A stretch of 64,000 bases of DNA from NCBI RefSeq assembly GCF_001677475.2, contig NZ_CP015229.1. One strand, given 5' to 3'. Origin of the DNA: Escherichia coli. Lineage in GTDB: Bacteria > Pseudomonadota > Gammaproteobacteria > Enterobacterales > Enterobacteriaceae. Position 1 is the stretch's first letter; every line of letters begins with the position of its first letter. A program made the position numbers. Shown here one piece after another: positions 59,901 through 62,900 of the stretch.

Positions 59901-62900
59901 AAAGAATACGTTGCCCAACCGAGCGTAACTCGCTCGGTCCACTGAACGAAACGCTATTGCCCAGAGAACGCCCTTCCCCCAACCGGTTGATCATCCTCTC
60001 GATATTTTTCACCGGACCAATAATCATCCGCGTGAAAAGCAGTACCATTACCAGACTCACCAGAAATAGCACCAGCGATTGCCAACCAAAATATTGCCCA
60101 CGTTCGGCGATTTCACGCTGAAGTTGCTGCCCACGAGAGAACACCACTGTGCGCGTGGCCTGCACCATTTCGGTATTGGCACTGGCAAAGGCTTCAAGAC
60201 GCGCAGCGGCGGCAGCATCGGGACCACTGTTGTTACACTGAAGTTGAGCCAGATTGTTCAAATCCTGACGCAATGCCTGGTAAAGTTTATCGTCTGGCAG
60301 TACGCCTGCGTGGGCATCGAGCATTTCGCTGTAACGCTTGCGCTGGCTTTGATAAACCTTCGCAAGCGTAGGGTCATCCAGCACGCAATACTGACGGTAG
60401 CTACGCTCCATCTCAAGCGCCGCGTTGGTCATTGCTTCGCTGCGCCGGGCATCGATAAGCGTGGTGCGGTTGACCAGCGCCGCCTGGTCGCTAAGCGCAT
60501 TCAGGCTTTGCCAGGCTTGCCATGCCAGCACCAACAGGGGTAGCAGAATCAGCAAAAATGCCAGCATTACCAGTTGTCGTAATGAGCGGGGAAAAACGGG
60601 CCAGCGTTTCAAGGTGTTACTCTCGTCAGACGCGAATAGCCTGATGCTAACCGAGGGGAAGTTCAGATACAACAAAGCCGGGAATTACCCGGCTTTGTTA
60701 TGGAATAAGGCGGTGCCTAACTCGACGTTTCGCCCGATGGTTGATATAGCTACGCTGATATCAGAAGTTGGACGGCAGGCACCTTGTTGTGCGTCATTCG
60801 AATTTTATGTAGCACGTCCCGAAGGGGCTGACATAAGTCGGTGAATGAGCCACTGCTTACTATTATGCAGTAACTGTGCCAATAAAGAAAATAGTTTGGT
60901 AACGTACTGATTATACGTTGTTTTGAGGGATTTATGGCTTCTTCGCTATTTGAATGTAAATCAGCCACTGTGTCGCTAAAAAGAGACAACTTAAGATAAA
61001 CTTATTAGATTACAATAAAATCAATCATTTAAGTGTCGCCAGAAAGCGACACGGTAAACCACCCATTGTCGTGATTTACAGACACAAAAAAGCTCCCTGA
61101 GTTGGGAGCTTATAATAGCGGTTGGTATTTAATGCCGGATGCGGCGTGAATGCCTCATCCGGGCTGCAAAACCAATGGGCTGACGACTTACCCCAACTGC
61201 TTACGTGCATTGCGGAAAATGCGCATCCATGGGCCATCCTCGCCCCAGTTTTCCGGATGCCAGGAGTTGCTGACAGTACGGAAAACACGTTCCGGGTGCG
61301 GCATCATAATGGTGACTCGACCGCTTTCAGTCGTGACCGCCGTAATACCGTTCGGAGAACCGTTCGGGTTAGCCGGGTAGGTTTCAGTGACTTTGCCGAA
61401 GTTATCGACATAGCGCAGTGCCACCAGCCCTTTGCTTTCCAGTGCCGCCAGATGCGCCGCATCACGCACTTCCACGCGCCCTTCACCATGAGAGACAGCA
61501 ATCGGCATTTGCGAGCCCACCATCCCCTGCAACAGCAGCGACGGGCTTTGGGTCACTTCAACCAGGCTGAAACGCGCTTCAAAGCGATCGGAGGTATTGC
61601 GCACAAAACGTGGCCACAACTCACTACCTGGGATCAGTTCACGCAGATTAGACATCATCTGGCAACCGTTACATACCCCCAGCGCCAGCGTTTGCGAACG
61701 GTGGAAGAAGGTTGCAAACTCATCGCGTACACGGTCATTGAACAGGATAGACTTCGCCCAACCTTCACCGGCACCCAGCACATCACCGTAGGAGAAACCA
61801 CCGCACGCGACCAGGGCGTGGAAATCCTCCAGTCCCGTGCGTCCAGTCAGCAGGTCGCTCATATGCACGTCGATAGCATCAAAGCCCGCACGGTGGAAAG
61901 CTGCCGCCATTTCAACATGCGAGTTCACGCCCTGCTCACGCAGTACGGCAACTTTCGGACGTGCGCCAGTGGCAATATACGGTGCTGCCACATCTTCGTT
62001 GATATCGAACGACAGTTTTACATTCAGGCCCGGATCGGCGTCGTTAGATTTCGCCTGATGCTCCTGATCGGCACACTCCGGGTTGTCACGCAGGCGCTGC
62101 ATCTGCCAGGTAGTTTCTGCCCACCAGACACGCAACGTAGTGCGGCTTTCGCTGAATACAGTCTGCCCGTTGGCGGTAATCACAAAACGGTCACCGGAAA
62201 CCGCCTGGCCAACATAATGGACGCAATCAGCAAGCCCATGCTTTGCCAGTACCGCTTCAACTGCTTCACGGTCAGCGGCTCGAACCTGAATCACCGCCCC
62301 CAGTTCTTCGTTAAACAGCGCCGCCAGGCGATCGTCACCCAGTGTGGCGATATTCGCTTCAATGCCGCAATGACCGGCAAACGCCATTTCCGCCAGCGTT
62401 ACCAGCAGGCCGCCATCAGAGCGGTCGTGATACGCCAGCAGCTTACGCTGTGCAACCAGCGCCTGAATCGCGTCATAGAAGCCTTTCAGTTGCGCGACGT
62501 CGCGTACATCTGCCGGTTTGTCGCCAAGCTGACGATAAACCTGCGCCAGCGCCGTTGCGCCCAGCGCGTTATTGCCTTTGCCCAAATCAATCAGCAGCAG
62601 TGCGTTATCTTCGGTAGAAAGCTGCGGCGTGATGGTGTGACGTACATCTTCCACGCGGGCAAATGCGGAAATCACCAGCGACAGCGGCGACGTCATTTCG
62701 CGCTCTTCGTTACCTTCCTGCCAGCGGGTTTTCATCGACATAGAGTCTTTACCCACCGGGATCGTCAGGCCCAGCGCCGGACAAAGCTCTTCGCCCACAG
62801 CTTTAACGGCTTCATACAGGCCCGCATCTTCGCCTGGATGACCTGCCGCTGCCATCCAGTTCGCGGAAAGTTTAATGCGTTTGATATCGCCAATCTGTGT

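What the first reader, a model, noticed from the sequence alone, without database searches (positions are those of the whole stretch)
60610..60612. glrK appears to initiate at TTG about 55 nt downstream of the glmY terminator
The only in-frame start that gives the expected 475-aa kinase is a TTG. The close spacing to the GlmY terminator fits read-through co-transcription of glmY and glrK.
Basis: inference. Interest (0 to 1): 0.2.

Follow-up and report, generated by a model that had tools for sequence, protein, structure and literature searches.

The report
glrK TTG start, own promoter
The sensor-kinase gene glrK (qseE) really does begin at a TTG codon just after the GlmY small-RNA terminator, as already curated for E. 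coli K-12, but it is transcribed from its own small promoter in that gap rather than by read-through from glmY, so the finding is ordinary.

Summary
On the minus strand, TTG at 60612..60610 opens a 1,428-nt ORF (475 aa, stop at 59185) encoding GlrK/QseE. It lies 58 nt past the GlmY 3' end and 56 nt past the terminator hairpin. It is the curated K-12 start (b2556), and the window is identical to K-12 from -95 to +50.

Comparative evidence agrees. In 79 Enterobacteriaceae species the aligned codon is TTG (73) or GTG (6), never anything else. Coding-type conservation begins exactly there. The downstream ATG (codon 16) is Thr, Ile or Val in 19 species. In-frame stops lie between terminator and start in 41 species. 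Homologues of 30-42% identity share the RPRSLxQL motif that lies upstream of Met16.

The co-transcription inference is not supported. Published K-12 work maps a sigma-70 promoter between the terminator and the TTG, with a TSS 25 bp upstream (window 60637). It found reporter activity unchanged by adding the glmY locus, and RT-PCR read-through that "does virtually not occur". A TANNNT -10 box (TAGCAT in E. coli) is conserved at that position in 78 of 79 species.

This is already known and of low interest. The one practical point is that about a third of automated gene calls wrongly start at codon 16.

The parts
59185..60612 (-). glrK/qseE coding sequence (475 codons plus TAA stop), starting at the TTG
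   Evidence: Translation. It is 97.5% nt identical to K-12 b2556 with 3 aa differences (H119N, P282T, A381V). Pfam finds HAMP 192-244, HisKA 250-316 and HATPase_c 362-470. PDB 9m08, 9m07 and 8jwd are QseE structures.
60610..60612 (-). TTG initiation codon of glrK
   Evidence: The same codon is the annotated start in K-12 (NP_417051.2) and in PGAP-annotated genomes. The aligned codon is TTG in 73 and GTG in 6 of 79 species.
60620..60624 (-). Weak Shine-Dalgarno-like GAGAG, 7 nt upstream of the TTG
   Evidence: G-A-G-A at -12..-9 is conserved in 69, 64, 75 and 68 of 79 species. Predicted pairing with the anti-SD is only -3.4 kcal/mol. The function is inferred.
60637..60637 (-). Transcription start of qseEGF (A, 25 nt upstream of the TTG)
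   Evidence: [quoted passage not shown] A is found at -25 in 60 of 79 species.
60644..60649 (-). Inferred -10 hexamer TAGCAT of the glrK sigma-70 promoter
   Evidence: It sits 7 nt upstream of the published TSS. A TANNNT hexamer lies within +/-3 nt of this distance from the start codon in 78 of 79 species, at the identical distance in 52. The hexamer assignment is my inference.
60667..60672 (-). Inferred -35 hexamer TTGTAT (17-nt spacer), overlapping the last bases of the glmY terminator tail
   Evidence: Sequence reading. It lies inside the -70..+107 fragment that carries promoter activity in PMC6075780. It matches only 3 of 6 consensus positions, is inferred, and is not conserved in species with longer gaps.
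60669..60701 (-). glmY intrinsic terminator hairpin (14 pairs, U-rich 3' arm and tail)
   Evidence: MFE fold. An equivalent hairpin was found in 77 of 79 species, 56-94 nt upstream of the start codon.
60671..60854 (-). glmY sRNA gene (184 nt by the K-12 annotation)
   Evidence: Rfam RF00128 at 60854..60707, 147.1 bits. The K-12 annotation places glmY 58 nt from glrK.
60565..60567 (-). In-frame ATG at codon 16, the rival start used by many automated gene calls and rejected here
   Evidence: Codon 16 is ATG in 60, ACG or ACA in 13, ATC or ATT in 4, and GTG or GTT in 2 of 79 species. Codons 8-15 upstream of it are invariant at the amino-acid level, with third-position entropy of 1.0-1.9 bits.
60670..60675 (-). 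Two in-frame TTG codons inside the terminator stem, which start the 496- and 495-aa 'longest ORF' and are rejected here
   Evidence: They lie upstream of the published TSS. 41 of 79 species have an in-frame stop between the terminator and the start. There is no codon periodicity upstream of the start.
60866..60881 (-). glmY sigma-54 promoter core TGGCAC-N5-CTGCA (context)
   Evidence: Single exact match in the window, against 0.04 expected by chance. The architecture matches PMC3045617.
60971..61084 (.). Three exact GlrR/QseF boxes TGTCN10GACA upstream of glmY (context)
   Evidence: Exact matches at 60971-60988, 61034-61051 and 61067-61084. The motif and the number of sites are as described in PMC3045617.

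Best explanation
This is the ordinary, already curated 5' end of glrK (qseE, yfhK) in an E. coli genome. Transcription of glrK-qseG-glrR starts at its own weak sigma-70 promoter, which is squeezed into the 58-nt gap after the glmY terminator. The inferred elements are a -35 TTGTAT at 60672..60667, touching the terminator tail, a -10 TAGCAT at 60649..60644, and a TSS at A60637. This gives a 25-nt leader carrying a weak SD-like GAGAG. Initiator tRNA reads the UUG at 60612..60610 as fMet, producing the 475-aa kinase. Its first 15 residues (MKRWPVFPRSLRQLV, four positive charges) form the short cytoplasmic tail before transmembrane helix 1. The weak promoter, weak SD and non-AUG start together fit the very low abundance of the kinase. 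The glmY terminator insulates glrK from the strongly regulated glmY promoter, so the system is not autoregulated. Shown here or in the literature: the codon, its conservation, the coding signature, the TSS position and the lack of read-through in K-12. Inferred: the hexamer assignments, the SD function, and the idea that UUG is kept in order to limit expression.
For: The TTG gives a 475-aa product. K-12 b2556 and PGAP annotations use the same start, and the window equals K-12 from -95 to +50. In 79 species the aligned codon is TTG in 73 and GTG in 6. Mean entropy by codon position is 1.43/1.49/1.40 for the 15 codons upstream, 0.36/0.18/1.25 for codons 2-15 and 0.35/0.13/1.05 for codons 16-50, so coding constraint starts at this codon. 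Codon 16 is not ATG in 19 of 79 species. The aligned TTG or GTG is the first start-capable codon after an in-frame stop in 33 of 79. Homologues at 30-42% identity align from query residue about 6-10 and carry (W)RPRS(L/I)xQL before TM1. An exact 60-nt match spanning -30..+30 is present in 3,880 of 5,426 complete E. coli genomes, and the variants examined keep the TTG. For transcription, PMC6075780 reports a sigma-70 promoter immediately downstream of glmY, a TSS 25 bp upstream of the start, fusions with and without glmY indistinguishable, read-through that 'does virtually not occur', and QseE undetectable in global proteomics. PMC3045617 and PMC4152352 describe an independent promoter. The -10 TANNNT box is conserved in 78 of 79 species and A at -25 in 60 of 79. 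No start-capable in-frame codon lies between the TSS and the TTG.
Against: I found no direct protein-level evidence for the N-terminus: glrK is absent from the INRI-seq and TRAINSPOTTER supplements. SD pairing is weak at -3.4 kcal/mol and no better than at the rival codons. The simple consensus scan found no promoter in the interval, because the hexamers total only 7 of 12 matches. The primary paper that mapped the TSS (Reichenbach et al. 2009) is not held in the library, so I rely on later papers from the same group. The K-12 reporter tests covered exponential and stationary LB cultures only. Co-transcription does occur in Proteus mirabilis.
Confidence: 0.93

Rival explanations
1. Translation starts at the downstream ATG (codon 16, 60567..60565), giving a 460-aa kinase that begins MLAFLL... 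directly in the first transmembrane helix. The TTG would then be non-coding leader.
For: ATG is the preferred start codon. 42 of 120 public cluster representatives (automated calls) begin at codon 16 or 17.
Against: Codon 16 is Thr, Ile or Val in 19 of 79 species. Codons 8-15 (PRSLRQLV) are invariant as amino acids while their third positions vary by 1.0-1.9 bits, which is a coding signature. Distant homologues carry the same RPRSLxQL motif. No SD-like sequence lies upstream of the ATG: pairing is -2.8 kcal/mol at a wrong spacing. Curated annotations do not use it.
Confidence: 0.03
2. Translation starts at one of the TTG codons inside the glmY terminator (60675 or 60672), giving the 496- or 495-aa 'longest ORF' found in some older annotations.
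For: The ORF is open up to TAA at 60687. Some public records use such extensions, for example the 497-aa Citrobacter rodentium ICC168 entry P0015.
Against: These codons lie upstream of the published TSS, so they are absent from the native mRNA, and they are buried in a 14-bp hairpin. There is no codon periodicity upstream of the TTG at 60612. 41 of 79 species have an in-frame stop in this interval, and gap lengths vary by non-multiples of 3 (57, 58, 59, 60 and so on).
Confidence: 0.01
3. A meaningful share of glrK mRNA arises by read-through of the glmY terminator, so glmY and glrK are co-transcribed and glrK would be indirectly autoregulated through the GlrR-activated glmY promoter.
For: The genes are on the same strand with a 58-nt gap. 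The U-tract is interrupted (CUUUGUUGUAU), which could make termination leaky. In Proteus mirabilis glmY-qseEGF is one operon (PMC8745638).
Against: K-12 has identical sequence here. In K-12, adding the whole glmY locus upstream did not change qseE'-lacZ activity in exponential or stationary phase, deleting qseF or qseG had no effect, and RT-PCR showed read-through 'does virtually not occur' (PMC6075780). A strong terminator hairpin is conserved in 77 of 79 species and a -10 box in 78 of 79. The Proteus case differs precisely in lacking the terminator and the intergenic promoter.
Confidence: 0.07

Closest known systems
E. coli K-12 glrK (b2556, NP_417051.2; also qseE or yfhK) with its upstream glmY (b4441)
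   Same: The start codon, the 1,428-nt length and the 58-nt spacing to glmY are the same. The sequence is 100% identical from -95 to +50. The downstream qseG-glrR-glnB order and the upstream sigma-54 promoter with three GlrR boxes also match.
   Different: The CDS is 97.5% identical at the nucleotide level, with three amino-acid differences (H119N, P282T, A381V). Nothing differs at the feature in question.
Proteus mirabilis glmY-qseE-qseG-qseF operon (PMC8745638)
   Same: Same gene order and the same sRNA and two-component system logic.
   Different: Proteus reportedly has no Rho-independent terminator after glmY and no promoter in the glmY-qseE interval, and RT-PCR shows co-transcription. The window has both a strong terminator and the K-12 promoter sequence.
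Salmonella-type QseE in the QseG-QseE cryo-EM structure (PDB 9m08; PMC12691602)
   Same: The deposited full-length chain starts MKRWSVFPRSLRQLVMLAF..., the same N-terminus definition. It aligns 1-471 to 1-471.
   Different: It is a recombinant construct, so it shows which start the field accepts, not where the native ribosome initiates.
Other bacterial genes with conserved non-AUG (UUG or GUG) starts
   Same: A near-cognate start codon is kept across a whole family together with low protein abundance. That UUG initiates less efficiently than AUG is established knowledge and was not tested here.
   Different: No feedback mechanism acting through the start codon is known or indicated for glrK. 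Some lineages add an in-frame ATG 1-3 codons upstream.

Membership tests
GlrK/QseE sensor histidine kinase (Enterobacteriaceae) | Near-identity over the full length to characterised E. coli GlrK | tested here: met
   3 aa differences from K-12 over 475 residues. 99% identity to NCBI entries named QseE/GlrK.
GlrK/QseE sensor histidine kinase (Enterobacteriaceae) | Domain architecture: periplasmic sensor between two hydrophobic segments, then HAMP, HisKA and HATPase_c | tested here: met
   Pfam finds HAMP 192-244, HisKA 250-316 and HATPase_c 362-470. Solved periplasmic-domain structures cover residues 38-171. The transmembrane helices were read from the sequence, not predicted with a tool.
GlrK/QseE sensor histidine kinase (Enterobacteriaceae) | Synteny glmY-glrK-qseG-glrR-glnB | tested here: met
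   GlmY by Rfam. Downstream minus-strand ORFs have the sizes of qseG, glrR and glnB. The K-12 layout matches.
GlrK/QseE sensor histidine kinase (Enterobacteriaceae) | A family-specific curated HMM hit above its cut-off | tested here: inconclusive
   NCBIfam release 20 returned only paralogous kinase models (CreC, CpxA, EnvZ and others), all below their cut-offs. No GlrK-specific model is in the library.
GlrK/QseE sensor histidine kinase (Enterobacteriaceae) | Autophosphorylation and phosphotransfer to GlrR/QseF | not testable with these tools
   Biochemical property, known for the K-12 and EHEC proteins from the literature.
UUG-initiated bacterial ORF | A start-capable codon conserved at the homologous position | tested here: met
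   TTG in 73 and GTG in 6 of 79 species. Codon positions 2 and 3 are invariant.
UUG-initiated bacterial ORF | Coding-type (three-periodic) constraint begins at this codon and not before it | tested here: met
   Entropy by codon position is 1.43/1.49/1.40 upstream and 0.36/0.18/1.25 for codons 2-15.
UUG-initiated bacterial ORF | No alternative in-frame start on the mRNA upstream of the conserved peptide | tested here: met
   With the TSS at -25, the in-frame leader codons TTC GCG TCT GAC GAG AGT AAC ACC include no ATG, GTG or TTG.
UUG-initiated bacterial ORF | Shine-Dalgarno element at a suitable spacing | tested here: inconclusive
   A conserved GAGA(G) sits at -12..-8, but pairing is only -3.4 kcal/mol, similar to the rival codons.
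UUG-initiated bacterial ORF | Direct detection of initiation (toeprint, start-site ribosome profiling or N-terminal peptide) | not testable with these tools
   glrK, qseE and b2556 are absent from the supplements of two start-site datasets. QseE was undetectable in global proteomics according to PMC6075780.
sRNA-mRNA read-through operon (Proteus glmY-qseEGF type) | No terminator between the sRNA and the downstream gene | tested here: not met
   A 14-bp GC-rich hairpin with a U-rich tail lies at 60701..60669. It is conserved in 77 of 79 species.
sRNA-mRNA read-through operon (Proteus glmY-qseEGF type) | No promoter in the intergenic interval | tested here: not met
   K-12 has a published sigma-70 promoter and TSS at -25 on identical sequence. 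The -10 box is conserved in 78 of 79 species.
sRNA-mRNA read-through operon (Proteus glmY-qseEGF type) | Downstream expression depends on the sRNA promoter | not testable with these tools
   Published K-12 reporter and RT-PCR data say it does not. I could not test this for the strain in the window.
GlmY sRNA (Rfam RF00128) | Covariance-model score above the gathering threshold | tested here: met
   147.1 bits against 33, full-length match to model positions 1-163.

The most novel reading that the evidence does not exclude
The most novel reading still open is that the layout is a selected design rather than an accident. The elements are a UUG or GUG start that is never AUG at that codon in 79 species, a leader of nearly fixed length (the -10 box is at the same distance from the start in 52 of 79 species and within 3 nt in 78), and a weak promoter wedged against the terminator of the very sRNA the kinase controls. 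Together these would hold kinase copy number extremely low and insulate it from glmY induction. Lineages that add an upstream ATG (Buttiauxella, L085) or lose the terminator (Proteus) would then be natural experiments in relaxing that design. A minor variant is that E. coli makes a small amount of a second, N-terminally truncated isoform from ATG16.
Probability: 0.3. Interest if true: 0.3.

Novelty: already known. Interest (0 to 1): 0.08.

Why it matters
It matters little for biology, because the start codon, the promoter and the lack of read-through are already in the curated K-12 annotation and the Goerke-lab literature. Two practical points follow. First, automated gene callers often get this gene wrong: 42 of 120 public cluster representatives start at codon 16 or 17, and 22 carry N-terminal extensions. 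The locus is therefore a useful reminder that a non-ATG start can be established from comparative data alone. Second, tight spacing behind an sRNA terminator should not be read as evidence of co-transcription, since a complete promoter fits in 58 nt here.

Tried and rejected
- The consensus promoter/terminator scan found no promoter and missed the glmY terminator. The promoter hexamers total only 7 of 12 matches, and the U-tract is absorbed into the stem, so this negative result is uninformative.
- SD-anti-SD duplex energies did not discriminate among the candidate starts: -3.9, -3.8, -3.4 and -2.8 kcal/mol.
- Predicted accessibility of the SD/start region was similar in the native 25-nt-leader mRNA (0.45) and in a read-through transcript (0.38), so no structural argument can be made.
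- NCBIfam has no GlrK-specific model, so profile coordinates could not be used to fix the N-terminus.
- The INRI-seq and TRAINSPOTTER supplements have no entry for glrK, qseE, b2556 or yfhK.
- The primary TSS paper (Reichenbach et al. 2009, Mol Microbiol) is not held. I relied on three later papers from the same group that cite it.
- A literature search for Term-seq or read-through data on the glmY terminator gave nothing specific. PMC3415461 mentions glrK only as a synteny anchor.
- The 50%-identity representative search collapsed all Enterobacterales GlrK into one cluster. It could not show start codons in Yersinia, Serratia or Proteus, but it did provide distant homologues.
- One intermediate homologue (L085) was examined. 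It keeps the TTG but also has an ATG 3 codons upstream and a gap of about 375 nt from glmY.
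Full report
**1. The observation**

The gene is on the minus strand. Plus-strand 60610-60612 is CAA, so the minus strand reads TTG at 60612..60610. 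Translation from there to the stop at 59185 gives 475 codons plus a stop, with a typical sensor-kinase sequence. The mechanically longest ORF is 496 aa and starts at a TTG at 60675.

Rfam places GlmY (RF00128) at 60854..60707 on the same strand, with 147 bits against a gathering score of 33. The terminator folds as a 14-bp hairpin at 60701..60669. With K-12's 184-nt annotation, the GlmY 3' end is at 60671.

Other in-frame start-capable codons are present:
- TTG 60675 and TTG 60672, both inside the terminator
- ATG 60567 (codon 16)
- TTG 60555 and GTG 60531

The upstream in-frame stop is TAA at 60687..60685.

**2. Identity with the curated reference**

In NC_000913.3, glrK (b2556, NP_417051.2) is 1,428 nt and glmY ends 58 nt upstream of it. 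PGAP annotates the same 1,428-nt qseE in other E. coli genomes.

The window is 100% identical to K-12 from -95 to +50 relative to the start, and the K-12 start codon is the same TTG. Over the whole CDS the identity is 97.5%, with three amino-acid changes. An exact 60-nt match spanning -30..+30 occurs in 3,880 of 5,426 complete E. coli genomes, including O157:H7. The variants I inspected keep the TTG.

**3. Comparative test of the start**

A genome scan returned 80 loci from different Enterobacteriaceae species (77-99% amino-acid identity), 79 of them usable. The results were:

- **Aligned codon.** It is TTG in 73 species and GTG in 6, and never a non-start codon.
- **Codon periodicity.** Mean column entropy by codon position is flat upstream and coding-like from this codon on:

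| Region | Pos 1 | Pos 2 | Pos 3 |
|---|---|---|---|
| 15 codons upstream | 1.43 | 1.49 | 1.40 |
| Codons 2-15 | 0.36 | 0.18 | 1.25 |
| Codons 16-50 | 0.35 | 0.13 | 1.05 |

- **Residues 8-15.** PRSLRQLV is invariant apart from Val at residue 14 in 2 of 79 species, while the third codon positions vary by 1.0-1.9 bits.
- **Codon 16.** The rival ATG is Thr in 13 species, Ile in 4 and Val in 2.
- **Upstream stops.** In 33 species the aligned TTG or GTG is the first start-capable codon after an in-frame stop. In 41 species an in-frame stop lies between the terminator and the start.
- **Gap length.** The terminator-to-start gap varies by non-multiples of three (57, 58, 59, 60 ... 94 nt), which is incompatible with coding.
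- **Distant homologues.** Proteins at 30-42% identity align from query residue about 6-10 and carry a (W)RPRS(L/I)xQL motif before the first transmembrane helix. This corresponds to E. coli residues 4-14, upstream of Met16.
- **Solved structure.** The deposited full-length QseE chain (PDB 9m08) uses the same N-terminus.

The TTG start is therefore well supported even without protein-level data.

**4. Transcription**

The literature on K-12, which has identical sequence here, says otherwise.

Goepel and Goerke 2018 (PMC6075780) report the following:
- A -70..+107 lacZ fusion and a -480..+107 fusion carrying the complete glmY locus gave 'virtually indistinguishable' activities, in both exponential and stationary phase.
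- Earlier RT-PCR suggested read-through 'does virtually not occur'.
- QseE was undetectable in a global proteomics study.

Goepel et al. 2010 and the 2014 review say the system is 'transcribed independently' or 'from an independent promoter'.

Mapping this onto the window puts the TSS at A60637. I infer a -10 TAGCAT at 60649..60644 and a -35 TTGTAT at 60672..60667, with a 17-nt spacer. The -35 overlaps the last bases of the terminator tail.

The promoter also shows up in the comparative data:
- A TANNNT hexamer (mostly TAGCAT) lies within +/-3 nt of the same distance from the start codon in 78 of 79 species, and at the identical distance in 52.
- By rough arithmetic, about 11% of species would show this by chance (seven positions times 1/64).
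- An A at -25 is present in 60 of 79 species.
- GAGA at -12..-9 is present in 64-75 of 79 species.

Where the gap is longer (up to 94 nt), the extra bases lie between the terminator and the -10 box.

Co-transcription is documented only for Proteus mirabilis. Its authors stress that it lacks the terminator and the intergenic promoter, in contrast to E. coli (PMC8745638).

**5. Mechanism**

- **Shown:** the codon, its conservation, the coding signature, and the K-12 TSS and lack of read-through.
- **Inferred:** the hexamer assignments, and that GAGAG at 60624..60620 acts as a weak SD (pairing only -3.4 kcal/mol). Also inferred is that the weak promoter, weak SD and UUG start together account for the very low kinase abundance, and that the terminator insulates glrK from the GlrR-activated glmY promoter, which fits the reported absence of autoregulation.

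The first 15 residues carry four positive charges ahead of a hydrophobic stretch. This fits a cytoplasmic tail before TM1, a reading of the sequence that was not tested with a tool.

**6. Context**

Upstream of glmY the window carries the sigma-54 core TGGCAC-N5-CTGCA at 60881..60866. It also has three exact TGTCN10GACA boxes at 60971-61084. Downstream are ORFs of the sizes of qseG, glrR and glnB. All of this matches the published K-12 architecture.

**7. Verdict**

The start-codon inference is supported and the co-transcription inference is not. Everything is already known for E. coli K-12.

The only mildly useful by-products are two. First, the public gene calls are inconsistent: of 120 cluster representatives, 56 are canonical, 42 start at codon 16 or 17, and 22 are extended. 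Second, the non-AUG start and the -10 box are conserved family-wide.

No direct N-terminal evidence was found, and the primary TSS paper could not be read.

Noticed in passing
window 60565-60675 (-); proteins P0001-P0120: Public gene calls for this gene use three different N-termini. Of 120 cluster representatives, 56 use the TTG/GTG start, 42 start at codon 16 or 17 (460-463 aa), 15 are 1-10 aa longer and 7 carry long extensions (497-539 aa) that read through the glmY terminator.
   Followed up: yes
window 60644-60649 (-) and loci L003-L082, about 37-32 nt upstream of the start codon: A TAGCAT-type -10 box is conserved at a nearly fixed distance from the glrK start codon across Enterobacteriaceae. 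Variants such as TACGCT, TACCCT and TAACCT keep T-A-N-N-N-T. The terminator-to-box distance varies, and the 31 nt between the box and the start are poorly conserved in sequence.
   Followed up: yes
loci L057, L069, L071, L075, L077 (ATG 3 codons upstream); L030, L038, L042, L043, L045, L053 (GTG 1 codon upstream); proteins P0026, P0027: Some lineages (Buttiauxella, Dryocola and some Enterobacter-like groups) have an additional in-frame ATG or GTG 1-3 codons upstream of the conserved TTG, so the start actually used there may differ. Sister species L068 and L081 lack the ATG.
   Followed up: partly
L085 (CP054158.1) 66-226, 601-1329, 1441-1929: In a 57%-identity homologue locus, glmY lies about 375 nt upstream of glrK rather than 58 nt. 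The TTG is retained at the aligned codon (610) with an ATG at 601. The kinase gene is called as two ORFs (242 aa plus at least 199 aa), suggesting a frameshift or pseudogene. The organism was not identified.
   Followed up: partly
window 60866-60881 (-), 60971-61084: The glmY sigma-54 promoter core and three exact GlrR/QseF boxes (TGTCN10GACA) are present, as published for K-12.
   Followed up: yes
window 61090-61111 (-): A clean intrinsic terminator (8-bp stem followed by TTTTTGTGTCT) lies just downstream of the purL ORF, between purL and the GlrR boxes.
   Followed up: no
window 56983-58419 (-) and 58307-59026 (-): The longest ORFs for glrR (478 aa, TTG) and qseG (239 aa, GTG) exceed the K-12 annotated lengths (444 and 237 aa by coordinates). 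As with glrK, the longest ORF therefore overshoots the curated start.
   Followed up: no
L052 (CACSKA010000009.1) and protein P0043: Records titled 'Chryseobacterium sp. 18061' and 'Vagococcus sp. WN89Y' carry a typical Enterobacteriaceae glrK locus or protein at 82-84% identity. This probably reflects mislabelled or contaminated assemblies.
   Followed up: no
window 59188-60612 (-): The window's GlrK differs from K-12 at H119N, P282T and A381V. The best E. coli match over 561 nt was 99.1%, and most genomes are at 95-99%, so the source is an E. coli lineage somewhat divergent from K-12.
   Followed up: partly
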